DNA of 64,000 bases. It comes from a phage. Position 1 is the first letter of the stretch. Every line of letters begins with the position of its first letter. The stretch lies in sequence record PV806337.1. One strand, written 5' to 3'. Both the position numbers and the translations under genes were made by a program. A model generated the notes under the pieces. That model was not told where the DNA came from. It was given only the letters and a program-made list of their open reading frames with translations, and searched no databases. Shown here piece after piece: positions 34,271 to 43,424 of the stretch.

Positions 34271-34342
34271 TGCCGTCCTAGTATAATTGGTATTATCAAG
34301 CCGTAACTGGTGGAAGATGTAGGTTCGAATCCTACGGTCGGT
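34271..34342 (+). ncRNA. degenerate tRNA-like fragment (T-arm and acceptor only)
   Basis: T-arm GTAGG-TTCGAAT-CCTAC and 6/7-bp acceptor GCCGTCC/GGTCGGT, no convincing anticodon arm, no CCA. Confidence 0.3.
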
Positions 34343-34845
34343 AAGAACTGGATAACTGATGCTTTTAACATAAAAGCTTCCGAGGTTAGTTGCGCACTGC
34401 CTAAACCACGCGGTAGTTGGTTCCAGACTAACCAACCAGTCTGCTGAATAGTTTTATTACGATTTAACTATGTCCAGGCTAAAGAAGAACTTTAGAAGGT
34501 ATTCTAGGATAGTGAAGTTCTTTCTCCATATCGGAGTAGTTTTTCAAGCTATCCACAAAGTGGGAAATGCTGACATGAGAGATGTCACTAATGGTGCACA
34601 ATAGCACAGGTAATTCGCGATAACTCCTGTTGAGTAGCAGCAAAAGGTGGGAAGTCATGACCCCAAGCCTAACCGAGTCCTCAATATACCGCAGGACATA
34701 ACCACTAAGTCACCCTGACTTAAACTGGAAAATAATAGACGTTACTGTATTTTGTCTTGAAATACTTAATGAGTGAGACTTATGACTCTCCCGGTATCGT
34801 CTGTATTTTTAAGAGTTTTTACGAGAGTTCTTAAAAATACTTAAA

Positions 34846-38550: not shown

Positions 38551-38628
38551 GGTTCTCAAGCTCATATGGTATGAGCACCCGGCTCATAACCGGAAGGTAC
38601 GTAGGTTCGAATCCTCGGGGAGCCACCA
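38551..38628 (+). tRNA. tRNA with CAT anticodon (Met/fMet/Ile2), non-canonical T-stem
   Basis: Acceptor GGTTCTC/GGGAGCC with G-U pairs; anticodon loop CTCATAA; T-loop TTCGAAT with bulged stem; CCA. Confidence 0.55.
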
Positions 38629-40267: not shown

Positions 40268-40346
40268 GCATTCCTAGAGTGTTACTGGACAGCATGTCGG
40301 TCTCCAAAACCGTACGGTCTAGGTTCGAGTCCTAGTAGGTTTGCCA
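40268..40346 (+). tRNA. putative tRNA-Trp (anticodon CCA); acceptor and D stems poorly paired
   Basis: T-arm CTAGG-TTCGAGT-CCTAG then ...G-CCA; anticodon loop CTCCAAA; weak acceptor pairing, possible pseudogene. Confidence 0.45.
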
Positions 40347-40352
40347 AAATTT

Positions 40353-40427
40353 GCACCTTTAGCTGAGATGGATTAGCGCTTGCCTGAAGAGCTTGAGAGG
40401 TTGGATCGTTACCAACGGGGTGCTCCA
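40353..40427 (+). tRNA. tRNA-like, possibly Phe (anticodon GAA), non-canonical T-loop
   Basis: Acceptor GCACCTT/GGGGTGC, D-arm GCTG...TAGC, anticodon loop CTGAAGA with mismatched stem, T-arm GTTGG-ATCGTTA-CCAAC, CCA. Confidence 0.45.
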
Positions 40428-40444
40428 AATTGAAGGAGCTGCTG

Positions 40445-40717
40445 ATGCATCCTGAAAACTTCTTTATTTACTGCGCTGATAAGTCGCTGAAACGTAGAAT
40501 TAACAAAGTCTATCATTATAGTGCTAGTCAACAGCCTTATGTATACGCTTTTGACGGTGATCACATTCCACTAGAACAATTATCTTGTGATTACATGATA
40601 TTGAAGAACTTTGATGAGACGAAGATCTCGAGCGTTCACAATCGACAGAATCCATTAACGTGGAAATATAAGAAGAAAAAGAAAGGCATCAAATTCTTAA
40701 AAAATGTAGTTGCTTAG
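40445..40717 (+). CDS. hypothetical protein (90 aa)
   Basis: ATG 40445 with RBS GAAGGAG; track start 40430 is TTG. Confidence 0.5.
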   Translation: MHPENFFIYCADKSLKRRINKVYHYSASQQPYVYAFDGDHIPLEQLSCDYMILKNFDETKISSVHNRQNPLTWKYKKKKKGIKFLKNVVA

Positions 40718-40738
40718 TTTCCAAAAGTTCTGTATAAT
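40710..40738 (+). promoter_or_regulatory. T5-type promoter upstream of tRNA-Cys
   Basis: -35 TTGCTT, 17 bp, -10 TATAAT. Confidence 0.65.
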
Positions 40739-40786
40739 AATTACATAAATTGAACTGGAGAAGCAACATGACAGAACAAGATAAAC

Positions 40787-40862
40787 CGACCGTTGGCTGA
40801 ATGGCTTAGGCGAAGGATTGCAAATCCTTTTTATGTGAGTTCAAATCTCATGCGGTCGTCCA
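40787..40862 (+). tRNA. tRNA-Cys (anticodon GCA)
   Basis: Acceptor CGACCGT/GCGGTCG, anticodon stem AAGGA/TCCTT with loop TTGCAAA, T-loop TTCAAAT, CCA; promoter directly upstream. Confidence 0.8.
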
Positions 40863-40883
40863 AATTACTAAAGGAAAGAAGTA

Positions 40884-41402
40884 GTGCATACAAAAGTTTT
40901 TGATAGTTTGGTAAAGAAAGGCGTTGTTACTAACGAGCCCTTCTATATAACCGCAGAACTAATCCAGAGATTTATGGAAGAATATATAAATCTTTCAGGA
41001 ACCAATGGTAATACCAAAAAGAATACAAATACTATGTATTCGAGAAAACTTGCTGCACTTTCCTTTATAAAGTTTAAGCAGGAAAATAAACTTCCTATTT
41101 CTGAAGGTTTTGTATACTGTATTAGTAATCCTGCATGGAAAAATCAGTATAAAATAGGTATGAGTCAAAATCCAAAAGAGAGATTAGCTCAATATCAGAC
41201 TTATTCCCCTTATAGGGATTATAAGTTAGAGCATTGGTCTTTTTGGTTTGACAAACGAAAAGGTGAAAAACTAATTCACCAGTATTTCAAAGATTTAAAA
41301 GAACATGAGTGGTTTAGTATAAATTCTAGGGATCTTAGTAAATATCTAGAACGTATTAACTCTAGTTCTGACTTATATGGTTCCTTAGCTCTAATTGGTT
41401 AG
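40884..41402 (+). CDS. T5orf172/GIY-YIG-like domain protein
   Basis: GFVYCISNPAWKNQYKIGMSQNPKERL...EWF; GTG start with RBS AAGGAAAG; last 24 nt overlap a tRNA 5' end. Confidence 0.6.
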   Translation: MHTKVFDSLVKKGVVTNEPFYITAELIQRFMEEYINLSGTNGNTKKNTNTMYSRKLAALSFIKFKQENKLPISEGFVYCISNPAWKNQYKIGMSQNPKERLAQYQTYSPYRDYKLEHWSFWFDKRKGEKLIHQYFKDLKEHEWFSINSRDLSKYLERINSSSDLYGSLALIG

Positions 41403-41456
41403 AGCGGCATCTTGTTAAGTTGAGGGTTGCTGGTTCGAATCCTGCAGGAACCGCCA
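41379..41456 (+). tRNA. tRNA, probable Asn (anticodon GTT)
   Basis: Perfect acceptor GGTTCCT/AGGAACC, D-arm GCTC...GAGC, loop TTGTTAA, T-loop TTCGAAT, CCA; 5' end overlaps CDS 40884-41402. Confidence 0.6.
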
Positions 41457-41558
41457 AATTCTGTGTAGAGTTAAGTAAACCGGTAGCCAACCAGCTATCA
41501 TTGCTGACATCGAATTCAGCCATAGATACCATTTTCGTTAATAACTGAGGAAACAAGC

Positions 41559-41744
41559 ATGTCCAAGAATGTAATTGCGCAGCTAGAAGTTCATCGTGAT
41601 AGCACTATCAACAATATTGAAGTTGAGAAGAAATACATAGAAGAACTTAAACATGATATACTGGTAAGTCTCAACCGTCTTAATGTACGAAAAGAGTTTC
41701 TTAAAGAACTTAATGCAGCTATTGAAAAACTCAAAGCTGAGTAA
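41559..41744 (+). CDS. hypothetical protein (61 aa), coiled coil
   Basis: Track ORF with RBS GAGGAAA. Confidence 0.5.
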   Translation: MSKNVIAQLEVHRDSTINNIEVEKKYIEELKHDILVSLNRLNVRKEFLKELNAAIEKLKAE

Positions 41745-41753
41745 ATGAATTAT

Positions 41754-41830
41754 GCGACCGGGGCTGGCTTGGTAATGGTACTCCCCTGTCACGGGAGAGA
41801 ATGTGGGTTCAAATCCCATCGGTCGCGCCA
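41754..41830 (+). tRNA. tRNA-Asp (anticodon GTC)
   Basis: Acceptor GCGACCG/CGGTCGC, anticodon stem CTCCC/GGGAG with loop CTGTCAC, T-loop TTCAAAT, CCA. Confidence 0.8.
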
Positions 41831-41847
41831 AATAAGGTAGGTTAGCT

Positions 41848-42006
41848 ATGGAACGTAGGGAGTTTACTCCAGAAGAGATAGAGCAGATAAAAGAATCTGC
41901 TATGAAAAATGCTAGAATATCTCTGTCACTGGAAGGTATCATTATTAGTGATGTAAACTTTGAAAAAATCAAAGCCATAGCTGATGAACTGGAAAAAGTA
42001 ATTTAA
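41848..42006 (+). CDS. hypothetical small protein (52 aa)
   Basis: Not in track; ATG after RBS AAGG. Confidence 0.35.
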   Translation: MERREFTPEEIEQIKESAMKNARISLSLEGIIISDVNFEKIKAIADELEKVI

Positions 42007-42007
42007 T

Positions 42008-42083
42008 ACATCCATAGCTCAATGGTTAGAGCTACCGCCTCTTAAGCGGAGGGTTCTAGGTTCAAGTCCTAGTGGGTGTACCA
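42008..42083 (+). tRNA. tRNA-Lys (anticodon CTT)
   Basis: Acceptor ACATCCA/TGGGTGT, D-arm GCTC..GAGC, loop CTCTTAA, T-arm CTAGG-TTCAAGT-CCTAG, CCA. Confidence 0.65.
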
Positions 42084-42109
42084 AATTAAACTAGCACGAG
42101 AAATATGCT

Positions 42110-43235: not shown

Positions 43236-43255
43236 CTTTAATAGAGGATTTCGAA

Positions 43256-43423
43256 ATGAAAGTATTTCGATTAGTAGTAAGTGACAAACGTTTAGGTAAG
43301 AATACCTCAAAATCCTTACTTGCTCATTATGGAAAAGATGAGAAAGAAGTAATGGCGGAGTTTGGGATTAATCACCCTTACTTGAAAGTTCACTCTATTA
43401 AAGAAGTATATAATGGTTACTAA
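43256..43423 (+). CDS. hypothetical small protein (55 aa)
   Basis: ATG after RBS AGAGGA between two tRNAs. Confidence 0.4.
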   Translation: MKVFRLVVSDKRLGKNTSKSLLAHYGKDEKEVMAEFGINHPYLKVHSIKEVYNGY

Positions 43424-43424
43424 T

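What the first reader, a model, noticed from the sequence alone, without database searches (positions are those of the whole stretch)
40884..41456. Protein-coding gene whose 3' end overlaps the 5' end of a tRNA gene
The T5orf172-like ORF ends at 41402 while the tRNA (probable Asn) starts at 41379 with a perfect 7-bp acceptor stem, so 24 nt serve both as codons and as tRNA acceptor/D-arm. Processing of the tRNA would cleave the mRNA, which suggests coupling between tRNA maturation and expression of this gene, or recent insertion.
Basis: seen in the sequence. Interest (0 to 1): 0.45.

Follow-up and report, generated by a model that had tools for sequence, protein, structure and literature searches.

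The report
Nuclease gene ending inside a tRNA
In this T5-like phage, a small selfish-looking nuclease gene in the tRNA operon has no stop codon of its own and ends inside the next tRNA gene; the overlap is real, but it is already annotated in phage T5 and the idea behind it has been published.

Summary
ORF 40884-41402 (GTG start, 172 aa, T5orf172/MUG113 = GIY-YIG-type nuclease) ends at a TAG that is nt 22-24 of tRNA-Asn(GTT) 41379-41456, so 24 nt are shared.

The window is a T5-like phage. The gene is the ortholog of T5.069 / BF23 "ORF trn 2.8", and GenBank already annotates both with this overlap.

Comparison with relatives shows a 510-nt cassette (Shine-Dalgarno sequence plus 165 codons, no stop codon) placed exactly between a 6-nt spacer and tRNA-Asn +1. 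The block ORF + tRNA-Asn + RNA3-like is 87-100% identical between phage genera whose flanks are only about 35-72% identical. The protein is under purifying selection (dN/dS 0.07).

The overlap is a family habit. Of 22 T5orf172 clusters found in phage tRNA clusters, 12 end inside the downstream tRNA, and four of these use tRNA U8-A9-G10 as TAG. HNH-like and PD-(D/E)XK nuclease genes do the same.

Most likely this is a homing-endonuclease-like gene travelling welded to its tRNA. RNase P cleavage would then remove its stop codon and limit expression; this step is inferred. The 2008 T4 SegB paper proposed a very similar control for SegB and the T5 F-Tfl endonucleases. Interest is modest.

The parts
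40710..40738 (+). T5-early-type promoter-like site: TTGCTT, 17-nt spacer, TATAAT, about 50 nt upstream of tRNA-Cys. Presumed start of the transcript that carries tRNA-Cys, the ORF and tRNA-Asn.
   Evidence: Read by eye in the sequence. It resembles T5 early promoters (own knowledge). The consensus scan did not call it because the -35 hexamer matches TTGACA at only 3 of 6 positions. That scan found no + strand terminator-like site between 39900 and 42600.
40787..40862 (+). tRNA-Cys(GCA), the upstream neighbour. Its CCA end is the left boundary of the shared cassette.
   Evidence: ARAGORN; Rfam 48.5 bits. Similarity to misterkot starts at about 40859.
40863..40868 (+). AATTAC: the remaining inter-tRNA spacer, identical to the end of the whole spacer AAATTAC at the empty site of phage GSW6.
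   Evidence: GSW6 reads tRNA-Cys | AAATTAC | tRNA-Asn; the window reads CCA-AATTAC-[510 nt]-GGTTCC.
40869..41378 (+). Inserted cassette of 510 nt: a 15-nt leader with Shine-Dalgarno AGGA (40872-40875), then 165 sense codons. It holds no stop codon in the reading frame.
   Evidence: Filled versus empty site comparison; ORF list.
40884..41402 (+). T5orf172/MUG113 (GIY-YIG superfamily) nuclease-like gene, 172 aa. Ortholog of T5.069 / ORF065 / BF23 ORF trn 2.8. Putative free-standing homing endonuclease.
41106..41357 (+). Nuclease domain (aa 75-158). Family-invariant residues include G75, Y78, K90, G92, R100, E128, E142 and W143.
   Evidence: Pfam envelope; invariant columns in the alignment of 25 homologs.
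41379..41402 (+). The 24 nt read both as codons (GSLALIG plus TAG) and as tRNA-Asn nt 1-24. The out-of-frame TAG at tRNA nt 8-10 is skipped. The stop codon used is tRNA nt 22-24.
41379..41456 (+). tRNA-Asn(GTT), the 'T5-type' allele. It is found in 134 phage records.
   Evidence: ARAGORN; Rfam 51.7 bits; megablast.
41459..41531 (+). Counterpart of T5 'RNA3' (annotated as a putative tRNA-like RNA). It lies inside the block of high cross-genus identity, so it is probably part of the same mobile unit.
   Evidence: T5 and BF23 annotation; identity profile; fold z = -2.05, no Rfam match.

Best explanation
What it is. The ORF is a free-standing, homing-endonuclease-like selfish nuclease gene of the T5orf172 branch of GIY-YIG. 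It sits in the early tRNA operon of a T5-like phage. It is a minimal cassette with its own Shine-Dalgarno sequence and start codon but no stop codon, placed exactly between the inter-tRNA spacer and nucleotide +1 of tRNA-Asn. Translation therefore runs into the tRNA gene and stops at the first in-frame stop, the TAG at tRNA nt 22-24.

How it travels. The ORF, its tRNA-Asn and the adjacent RNA3-like element are inherited and exchanged between phages as one block. The overlap is mainly a structural consequence of very tight packing of nuclease genes against the 5' ends of tRNAs. It recurs in this family and in other nuclease families in phage tRNA clusters.

Inferred consequence.
1. The gene is transcribed as part of the tRNA precursor.
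2. RNase P cleavage at 41378/41379 releases tRNA-Asn.
3. The ORF message is then left without its last 7 codons and its stop codon.
4. Processed messages are non-stop and are handled by ribosome rescue (tmRNA tagging and degradation).
5. Only unprocessed precursor gives full-length protein.
This would keep a potentially toxic nuclease at a low level.

Shown here: the anatomy, selection on the protein, cassette boundaries, block transfer and family-wide recurrence. Inferred: nuclease and homing activity, co-transcription, the RNase P cut, and the effect on expression.
For: - Overlap and gene reality.
- Nuclease fold and conserved residues R100 and E142.
- Precise filled versus empty site with the same tRNA-Asn allele. 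GSW6 reads Cys | AAATTAC | Asn; the window reads AATTAC + 510 nt with no stop codon + Asn.
- Presence/absence polymorphism. About 80 of roughly 490-500 T5-like records hold the ORF. Shivani has the same tRNA-Cys and the same downstream DNA, but 152 nt plus a different tRNA-Asn in place of the ORF + tRNA-Asn.
- Island of identity. Against the Epseptimavirus misterkot, 40880-41539 is 87-100% identical, while the left flank is 35-72% and the next gene 53-72%.
- Paralogs at other inter-tRNA sites, each reading into the next tRNA:
  - Tyr|ORF|Glu, 10 and 15 nt.
  - Met|ORF|Lys, 10 nt.
  - Tyr|ORF|Asn, 10 nt.
  - T4-like EnC07 ORF|Asn, 10 nt.
  - My1, 33 and 43 nt.
  - Metagenomic loci, 5, 13, 22 and 27 nt.
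- Family tally: 12 of 22 clusters overlap the tRNA, 3 abut it and 3 lie within 20 nt.
- Enrichment over other ORFs: p = 0.01.
- Other nuclease families do the same. An HNH/NUMOD4-like ORF (weak Pfam hits) ends at U8-A9-G10 of tRNA-Asp. A PD-(D/E)XK ORF overlaps tRNA-Ile by 7 nt.
- In the window, this is the only recognisable nuclease gene in the tRNA cluster and the only ORF that overlaps a tRNA.
- Precedent. The T4 SegB paper proposes control of SegB by processing between its last sense codon and stop codon during tRNA-Arg maturation, and a similar lowering of expression through transcript processing for the T5 F-Tfl endonucleases (PMC2330249). T5orf172 genes have been described as homing endonuclease genes that sit at recombination boundaries (PMC10448857).
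Against: - No cleavage, homing or expression data exist for this protein.
- Some paralogs have their own stop codon 9-51 nt before the tRNA, so the overlap is not required for the gene.
- The tRNA-encoded tail (aa 166-172) lies beyond the conserved domain, so a message cut by RNase P could still give an active protein if the ribosome is rescued without tagging.
- The last 108 nt of the ORF are invariant against misterkot while the rest differs at 7.5%. This hints at an extra constraint or a more recent exchange that the by-product view does not explain.
- The promoter is assigned by eye only.
Confidence: 0.6

Rival explanations
1. The overlap is a selected regulatory device. Sharing 24 nt would make translation of the nuclease and maturation of tRNA-Asn mutually exclusive on any one transcript, tuning one against the other. 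For example, ribosomes could unfold the acceptor and D arms, or RNase P could act as a timer.
For: - Overlap recurs in independent paralogs and in three nuclease families.
- The same register is reused: the stop codon is tRNA nt 8-10 in four T5orf172 clusters upstream of Asn, Glu and Lys tRNAs.
- There is no substitution in the last 108 nt of the ORF against misterkot.
- A similar idea has been published for SegB and the F-Tfl endonucleases.
Against: - Overlap length ranges from 0 to 43 nt and the stop falls at different tRNA positions (8, 13, 22 and others).
- Ten of 22 clusters do not overlap.
- The overlapping tail is not conserved in sequence or length.
- T4 SegB keeps its own TAA 5 nt before tRNA-Arg.
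- Two of the three frames reading into this tRNA meet a stop within 24 nt, so any stop-less cassette would look like this.
Confidence: 0.2
2. The protein is not a homing endonuclease. It would instead have a tRNA-related or anti-defence role, for example acting on tRNA, on tRNA genes, or on host anticodon-nuclease defences. That role would explain why this subfamily is always found in tRNA clusters, with the overlap incidental.
For: - All nine metagenomic paralogs and all T5-like and T4-like paralogs with the same N-terminal domain lie in tRNA clusters.
- More distant T5orf172 proteins that share only the nuclease domain do not.
- The N-terminal domain has no known function.
- Purifying selection is strong, which is unusual for a purely selfish gene.
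Against: - Patchy presence at otherwise syntenic sites.
- One to three paralogs per genome, at different inter-tRNA sites.
- Sharp cross-genus identity island bounded by tRNA ends.
- T4 SegB shows that a GIY-YIG homing enzyme can live in a tRNA cluster and target tRNA gene DNA.
Confidence: 0.12
3. The ORF is a recent insertion or a decaying pseudogene that lost its own stop codon. The read-through into the tRNA would be a transient accident on the way to loss.
For: - The cassette has no stop codon.
- ORF-less alleles exist, including one with the same tRNA-Asn (GSW6).
Against: - The ORF is intact in about 80 records, including T5 and BF23.
- dN/dS is 0.07 across 6% nucleotide divergence.
- Catalytic-type residues are invariant in 25 homologs.
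- The same stop-less design is seen in paralogs only 40-50% identical.
Confidence: 0.04
4. The overlap is an artefact of boundary calling: the true tRNA start or the true ORF stop lies elsewhere.
For: One T5 record (AY587007) places its tRNA features 68 nt away from where ARAGORN finds them, and there no overlap is visible.
Against: - ARAGORN and the Rfam covariance model agree on 41379.
- The 7-bp acceptor stem fixes the 5' end.
- The reading frame has no stop codon before 41400.
- AY543070 and AJ604530 annotate the same overlap.
Confidence: 0.02

Closest known systems
Phage T5 T5.069 (ORF065) and BF23 'ORF trn 2.8' with tRNA-Asn
   Same: Orthologous locus. The protein is 172 aa and 99% identical, with the same GTG start, the same 24-nt overlap with the same tRNA-Asn, and the same neighbours (tRNA-Cys upstream, RNA3 downstream).
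   Different: The window tRNA-Asn carries a private A-to-T change in the T-stem (41443). The region upstream of tRNA-Cys is arranged as in Salmonella phage S130, not as in T5. The GenBank records call the protein 'hypothetical' and do not comment on the overlap.
T4 SegB (GIY-YIG homing endonuclease in the T4 tRNA cluster)
   Same: - A free-standing GIY-YIG-superfamily gene between tRNA genes, on the same strand and transcribed within the tRNA precursor.
- It ends right at the next tRNA.
- The authors proposed that processing for tRNA-Arg maturation cuts between the last sense codon and the stop codon and so limits expression.
- SegB targets tRNA gene DNA; its preferred site is tRNA-Asn of T2L.
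   Different: - SegB has its own TAA, 5 nt upstream of tRNA-Arg, so the genes do not truly overlap.
- There is no detectable sequence similarity by BLASTP.
- It belongs to a different GIY-YIG branch (PF01541-type rather than T5orf172/MUG113).
- SegB activity and homing have been shown by experiment; here they have not.
[quoted passage not shown]
   Same: Selfish nuclease genes inside the T5 tRNA cluster. Lowering of their expression through tRNA-precursor processing has been suggested (citing Akulenko 2004 and a personal communication). An HNH/NUMOD4-like ORF in related loci ends at U8-A9-G10 of tRNA-Asp.
   Different: They are a different nuclease fold (HNH) and are nicking enzymes. No HNH gene was found in the tRNA cluster of this window.
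T5orf172 homing endonuclease genes of ICP1 and other phages (Barth, Dunham and Seed 2023)
   Same: Same Pfam domain pair (T5orf172/MUG113). They lie at boundaries of genetic exchange between related phages, and T5-like phages are among the lineages carrying them.
   Different: Those proteins are mostly larger and carry CapR/DUF723/DUF4397 zinc-finger DNA-binding domains. This subfamily has a short helical N-terminal domain with no match. The passages of that paper retrieved here do not mention an overlap with tRNA genes.
Animal mitochondrial 'tRNA punctuation' of mRNAs
   Same: Protein-coding and tRNA sequences abut or overlap on one transcript, and excision of the tRNA defines the end of the mRNA (own knowledge; Ojala et al. 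1981).
   Different: In mitochondria, cleavage followed by polyadenylation completes a partial stop codon. Here cleavage would remove a complete stop codon. No polyadenylation-based repair is expected in bacteria.

Membership tests
tRNA (Rfam RF00005) | Cloverleaf scored above the family gathering threshold, with an anticodon and a defined 5' end | tested here: met
   51.7 bits against a gathering score of 29, at 41379-41453. ARAGORN calls tRNA-Asn(GTT) at 41379-41456. There is one U:U mismatch in the T-stem.
T5orf172 / MUG113 (GIY-YIG clan) | Match to the Pfam domain models above their curated cut-offs | tested here: met
   MUG113 scores 59.3 bits (cut-off 22.3). T5orf172 scores 47.6 bits (cut-off 20). 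The classical GIY-YIG model PF01541 scores only 13.6 bits, below its cut-off.
T5orf172 / MUG113 (GIY-YIG clan) | GIY-YIG alpha/beta fold with conserved Tyr, Arg and Glu in the active-site region | tested here: met
   - AlphaFold2 model: pLDDT 90, with a three-stranded sheet plus helices over aa 75-160.
- Y78, R100 and E142 are invariant in 25 homologs.
T5orf172 / MUG113 (GIY-YIG clan) | Metal-dependent DNA cleavage | not testable with these tools
   Needs purified protein.
Free-standing homing endonuclease gene | Presence/absence polymorphism at the same site in otherwise collinear relatives | tested here: met
   Filled: the window, T5, BF23, S130 and misterkot. Empty: GSW6 (same tRNA-Asn allele), Shivani, oselot and Eps7 (other allele). 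About 80 of roughly 490 records are filled.
Free-standing homing endonuclease gene | Evidence of horizontal spread with co-transferred flanks (an identity island) | tested here: met
   87-100% identity over 40880-41539, against 35-72% and 53-72% in the flanks, in comparison with a phage of another genus.
Free-standing homing endonuclease gene | Site-specific cleavage of the allele that lacks the gene, and nuclease-dependent over-inheritance in mixed infection | not testable with these tools
   No experimental data found.
Free-standing homing endonuclease gene | A separate DNA-binding module next to the nuclease domain | tested here: inconclusive
   An N-terminal three-helix domain (aa 1-67) is modelled with confidence. 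It has no Pfam hit and no convincing structural match.
SegB / F-Tfl-type arrangement (nuclease gene inside a phage tRNA operon, clipped by tRNA processing) | Same-strand position between tRNA genes, with no terminator or obvious private promoter | tested here: met
   tRNA-Cys lies 21 nt upstream. The scan found no + strand terminator-like site between 39900 and 42600 and no promoter-like site between tRNA-Cys and the ORF start.
SegB / F-Tfl-type arrangement (nuclease gene inside a phage tRNA operon, clipped by tRNA processing) | The tRNA 5' processing site lies at or upstream of the stop codon | tested here: met
   By sequence, tRNA +1 is at 41379 and the stop codon at 41400-41402. The cut itself is inferred from RNase P biology.
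SegB / F-Tfl-type arrangement (nuclease gene inside a phage tRNA operon, clipped by tRNA processing) | Reduced protein output because of that processing | not testable with these tools
   Needs RNA end-mapping and reporter assays.

The most novel reading that the evidence does not exclude
Nuclease genes of several folds (T5orf172, HNH-like, PD-(D/E)XK) in phage tRNA clusters may form obligate 'nuclease + tRNA' mobile modules. The conserved tRNA nucleotides U8-A9-G10, or D-loop TAG/TAA triplets, would serve as the nuclease's stop codon. These modules would drive the turnover of phage tRNA alleles and repertoires. The shared nucleotides would make RNase P and ribosome rescue a built-in limiter of nuclease dosage. 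On this reading the overlap is a convergent, selected design and not a packing accident.
Probability: 0.2. Interest if true: 0.55.

Novelty: new member of a known kind. Interest (0 to 1): 0.3.

Why it matters
For this locus, very little is new. The overlap has been in the T5 and BF23 GenBank records for about twenty years, and the idea that tRNA processing clips nuclease messages in phage tRNA operons was published in 2008.

The comparison adds three things.
- The habit is widespread. More than half of this T5orf172 subfamily borrows its stop codon from the next tRNA, often the near-universal U8-A9-G10, and at least two other nuclease families do the same.
- The nuclease gene and 'its' tRNA allele move together between phage genera.
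- This gives a concrete, testable handle on two questions: how selfish nucleases are kept at a harmless dose, and how the tRNA sets of large virulent phages get reshuffled.

It is also a practical warning for annotation pipelines that forbid overlaps between protein-coding genes and tRNA genes. Several records (EnC07, NBSal002, vB_EcoD-Elw) leave such ORFs uncalled, and one (mar004NP2) leaves the tRNA uncalled.

Tried and rejected
- SegB homology: BLASTP of the ORF against T4 SegB found no similarity, so the resemblance is in arrangement and not in close ancestry.
- Solved structures: a profile search of the family against PDB sequences gave no hit at E <= 1.
- Decayed remnant: the 152-nt Shivani spacer that replaces the ORF was searched for a decayed T5orf172 remnant with tblastn. 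Nothing was found, and the spacer does not occur in the window.
- Promoter and terminator scan: it did not call the promoter-like site seen by eye and found no + strand terminators.
- RNA3-like element: no Rfam match even at E <= 10.
It was repeated with database homologs.
- Literature: searches for an explicit description of T5orf172/tRNA overlap or of non-stop messages created by tRNA processing turned up only the SegB discussion. Older papers from the Ksenzenko laboratory and Wang et al. 2005 are not in the searchable library.
- Distant relatives: about 55 IMG/VR relatives share only the nuclease domain (36-51% identity over aa ~72-158) and lie in contigs without tRNAs. The tRNA link therefore belongs to the subfamily with this N-terminal domain and not to T5orf172 as a whole.
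- 'Addiction' idea: the thought that the overlap blocks loss of the ORF is rejected, because GSW6 has the same tRNA-Asn directly after a 7-nt spacer.
- Other nucleases in the window: a Pfam scan of the larger ORFs in the tRNA cluster found no other nuclease gene.
Full report
**1. What is there**

The window carries a cluster of at least 21 tRNA genes between about 34.8 and 46.7 kb (ARAGORN). The Rfam model finds three more. Megablast shows a T5-like phage (Demerecviridae, Tequintavirus). Region 40300-42100 is 98% identical to Salmonella phages S130/S131, and 502 phage records match it.

The ORF in question runs 40884-41402 on the + strand, with a GTG start, 172 aa and a TAG stop. ARAGORN places tRNA-Asn(GTT) at 41379-41456. 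The Rfam tRNA covariance model places it at 41379-41453, with 51.7 bits and E = 7e-9. The two methods agree on the 5' end, which the perfect 7-bp acceptor stem GGTTCCT/AGGAACC also fixes.

The shared stretch is 41379-41402. It reads GGT TCC TTA GCT CTA ATT GGT TAG, which is G-S-L-A-L-I-G-stop.

**2. Both genes are real**

- The ORF matches Pfam MUG113 (E = 5.5e-16) and T5orf172 (E = 2.5e-12) over aa 75-158, and phrog_5032 (E = 2e-63).
- An AlphaFold2 model built on 25 homologs is confident (pLDDT 90, pTM 0.84).
- Y78, R100, E128 and E142 are invariant across the homologs.
- Against the ortholog in Salmonella phage misterkot there are 31 nucleotide differences but only 6 amino-acid differences, giving dN/dS = 0.07. 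The protein is under purifying selection.
- The GTG start is supported by an AGGA 8 nt upstream, by the ribosome-binding site annotated in BF23, and by the conserved N-terminus 'MH.K' in paralogs that start with ATG.

**3. It is the T5 gene**

- The same 172-aa protein is T5.069 in AY543070, ORF065 in AY587007 and 'ORF trn 2.8' in the BF23 tRNA-region record.
- AY543070 and AJ604530 annotate the CDS and tRNA-Asn with exactly this 24-nt overlap.
- In AY587007 the tRNA features sit 68 nt away from where ARAGORN finds them, which hides the overlap there.

**4. Anatomy of the insertion**

Salmonella phage GSW6 has the same tRNA-Asn allele (76 of 78 nt) directly after a tRNA-Cys, separated only by AAATTAC. 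The window reads CCA-AATTAC-[40869..41378]-GGTTCC.

The extra DNA is therefore a 510-nt cassette. It consists of a 15-nt leader with the Shine-Dalgarno sequence, followed by 165 sense codons. It has no stop codon in the reading frame and abuts tRNA nucleotide +1 exactly.

Of the three frames that read into this tRNA:
- one stops at nt 8-10 (TAG, the U8-A9-G10 triplet);
- one stops at nt 22-24 (the frame used here);
- one stays open through the whole tRNA.

**5. The unit that varies is ORF plus tRNA**

- Shivani, also a Tequintavirus, has the same tRNA-Cys and the same downstream sequence. Between them it carries 152 nt of unrelated sequence plus a different 83-nt tRNA-Asn allele.
- Epseptimaviruses such as oselot and Eps7 have tRNA-Cys, 8 nt, then that other allele.
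- The T5-type tRNA-Asn occurs in 134 phage records.
  - About 80 carry the T5-type ORF.
  - 39 are Klebsiella phages. In the two I read, a 41-47% identical paralog reads into the same tRNA in the other register, stopping at nt 8-10.
  - GSW6, and My1 (no ORF immediately upstream), carry this tRNA without the ORF.
- Against misterkot, a phage of a different genus, 60-nt bins are 87-100% identical from 40880 to 41539, which spans the ORF, tRNA-Asn and the RNA3-like element; mismatches stop at 40858, just inside the end of tRNA-Cys. Identity is only 35-72% to the left (a different tRNA-Cys allele) and 53-72% in the next gene. This is the signature of a block that has moved between genomes.
- At a second site the same pattern holds.
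  - In the window, tRNA-Met and tRNA-Lys(UUU) are separated by a 55-aa ORF that ends 1 nt before the tRNA.
  - In misterkot, BF23 and Eps7, a T5orf172 paralog sits there.
  - In misterkot, where I compared the tRNA sequence, it comes with a different tRNA-Lys allele.

**6. The overlap is a family habit**

I ran ARAGORN plus a family HMM on 79 IMG/VR loci, the annotated phage loci and nine metagenomic contigs. Every relative that shares the N-terminal domain lies in a tRNA cluster.

After clustering at 70% identity there are 22 T5orf172 clusters in tRNA clusters:
- 12 end inside the downstream tRNA, with overlaps of 5, 10, 10, 10, 10, 13, 15, 22, 24, 27, 33 and 43 nt;
- 3 end on the base before tRNA +1;
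- 3 end 9-20 nt before it;
- 4 end further away.

In four clusters, upstream of Asn, Glu and Lys tRNAs and including a T4-like Karamvirus, the stop codon is tRNA U8-A9-G10 read as TAG.

Other ORFs of 50 aa or more that end near a tRNA in the same loci overlap it in 12 of 41 clusters (Fisher p = 0.01). Some of those ORFs are probably not genes. The convincing ones include:
- a 193-aa ORF with weak NUMOD4 and HNH_3 hits, below Pfam's cut-offs, that stops at nt 8-10 of tRNA-Asp;
- a PD-(D/E)XK endonuclease that overlaps tRNA-Ile by 7 nt.

In the window, eight other ORFs end 1-21 nt before the next tRNA. Only the nuclease gene overlaps, and it is the only recognisable nuclease gene in the cluster. 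Tight packing is thus general in these operons, and running into the tRNA is typical of the nuclease genes.

**7. How it most likely works**

Shown here:
- the gene is a conserved GIY-YIG-type nuclease gene;
- it is present or absent at a fixed inter-tRNA site;
- it has paralogs at other inter-tRNA sites;
- it lies in a block exchanged between genera.
Together these fit a free-standing homing-endonuclease-like element. T5orf172 genes have been described as such, sitting at recombination boundaries (PMC10448857). Homing nucleases are named as the main source of differences among T5-like genomes (PMC10644984).

Inferred:
1. Transcription starts from a T5-early-type promoter-like site at 40710-40738. 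I read this by eye; the scan did not call it. It would continue through tRNA-Cys, the ORF, tRNA-Asn and beyond, since no + strand terminator-like site was found.
2. RNase P cuts at 41378/41379. This is established for bacterial tRNA precursors, for example PMC2190699 (listed).
3. That cut removes the last seven codons and the stop codon, leaving a non-stop message.
4. [quoted passage not shown]
5. Only uncut precursor gives the full protein, and a ribosome terminating at 41400-41402 would hold the acceptor and D arms unfolded.

The net effect would be low nuclease output.

The T4 SegB paper offers nearly the same proposal. [quoted passage not shown] SegB's preferred target is a tRNA-Asn gene. 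In T4, however, segB keeps its own TAA 5 nt before tRNA-Arg, and SegB shows no sequence similarity to this protein.

**8. What argues for caution**

- No activity, homing or expression data exist for this protein.
- The overlapping tail (aa 166-172) lies beyond the conserved domain, which ends at about aa 158-161, and is modelled with low confidence. A clipped message could still give active enzyme if the ribosome is rescued without tagging.
- Overlap length and register vary widely and ten of 22 clusters do not overlap. I therefore read the overlap as a by-product of minimal insertion against tRNA +1, with a likely dampening effect, and not as a device proven to be selected.
- One observation does not fit neatly. 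The last 108 nt of the ORF show no difference from misterkot, while the first 411 nt differ at 7.5%. This could reflect a more recent exchange around the tRNA or an added constraint.

**9. Verdict**

The 'processing cuts the mRNA' logic is sound and has precedent in the literature. 'Recent insertion' should be replaced by 'old, mobile cassette that includes the tRNA'.

On novelty, this is a further member (T5orf172-type) of a known kind of arrangement, at a locus whose overlap is already in GenBank. The family-wide pattern and the use of U8-A9-G10 as a stop codon are a modest extension. I could not find them described in the searchable literature. Interest is 0.3.

Noticed in passing
window 41443: The window tRNA-Asn has T where every other copy read here has A (T5, S130, mar004NP2, GSW6, misterkot, K7_rec19). 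This turns T-stem pair 51:63 into U:U. None of the 134 database records with this tRNA is identical to the window; the best is 77 of 78 nt. It could be a real private mutation or a sequencing error.
   Followed up: partly
window 41295-41402 (last 108 nt of the ORF): There is no difference from misterkot here, although the first 411 nt of the ORF differ at 31 positions. About 8 differences would be expected over the whole 108 nt, or about 6 in the 84 nt upstream of the tRNA. The stretch continues through tRNA-Asn. It could reflect a recent exchange tract or an extra constraint upstream of the tRNA.
   Followed up: partly
window 41459-41531: Counterpart of T5/BF23 'RNA3 (tRNA-like RNA)'. It is 92-98% conserved across genera and lies inside the cassette. 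It folds into an acceptor-like stem plus two hairpins (z = -2.05) but matches no Rfam family even at E <= 10.
   Followed up: partly
window 34272-34343, 38551-38625, 40353-40424: Three tRNA-model matches reach the Rfam gathering score (31.5-40.3 bits) but ARAGORN does not call them. By position, 40353-40424 corresponds to the tRNA-Phe annotated in relatives.
   Followed up: no
window 42006/42008, 43423/43425, 46476/46478: Three small ORFs (52, 55 and 68 aa) end exactly 1 nt before the next tRNA. Others end 4-21 nt before. Directly adjacent tRNAs are 6-8 nt apart. The whole operon is packed so that ORF messages are in effect tRNA 5' leaders.
   Followed up: partly
window 43236-43424; L104 4777-5425; L012; L009: The tRNA-Met / tRNA-Lys(UUU) interval is an empty site in the window. 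BF23, Eps7 and misterkot have a T5orf172 paralog there. In misterkot its start overlaps the end of the upstream 54-aa ORF, its stop codon is nt 8-10 of the tRNA, and it comes with a different tRNA-Lys allele.
   Followed up: partly
L020 and L022 (193-aa ORF before tRNA-Asp); L098 reverse strand (133-aa ORF before tRNA-Ile): An HNH/NUMOD4-like ORF (weak Pfam hits, below the curated cut-offs) ends at U8-A9-G10 of tRNA-Asp. A PD-(D/E)XK endonuclease ORF (PDDEXK_5, E = 5e-28) overlaps tRNA-Ile by 7 nt. Two further nuclease folds thus show the same habit.
   Followed up: partly
L001 (AY587007, phage T5): The tRNA features in this T5 record lie 68 nt away from the positions ARAGORN finds in the same sequence. 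As a result ORF065 appears to overlap tRNA-Cys instead of tRNA-Asn. This looks like an annotation offset.
   Followed up: yes
L003 (vB_Eco_mar004NP2) about 2486-2490: This phage has a 1-nt insertion in the T-loop of tRNA-Asn (GCTGGATTCGAAT). The tRNA is neither annotated there nor called by ARAGORN, while the overlapping ORF is intact.
   Followed up: no
L091 (Shivani) 1277-1428: The 152-nt segment that replaces the ORF between tRNA-Cys and the other tRNA-Asn allele folds strongly (-41.3 kcal/mol). It has no similarity to T5orf172 or to anything in the window. Its nature is unknown.
   Followed up: partly
L102 (T4) 949-953 on the minus strand; L011 (GSW6) 1497-1503: The 5 nt between the segB stop codon and tRNA-Arg in T4 read ATTAC (context TTTTAAATTAC|G). 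The spacer before tRNA-Asn in GSW6 and the window reads AAATTAC|G. This may be a shared pre-tRNA processing context or a coincidence.
   Followed up: no
L103 (UFV-AREG1, T4-like) 962-1516: A 27%-identical T5orf172 relative sits directly after tRNA-Arg, where T4 has the stable RNAs rnaD and rnaC. I did not check whether its 3' end abuts one of those tRNA-like RNAs.
   Followed up: no
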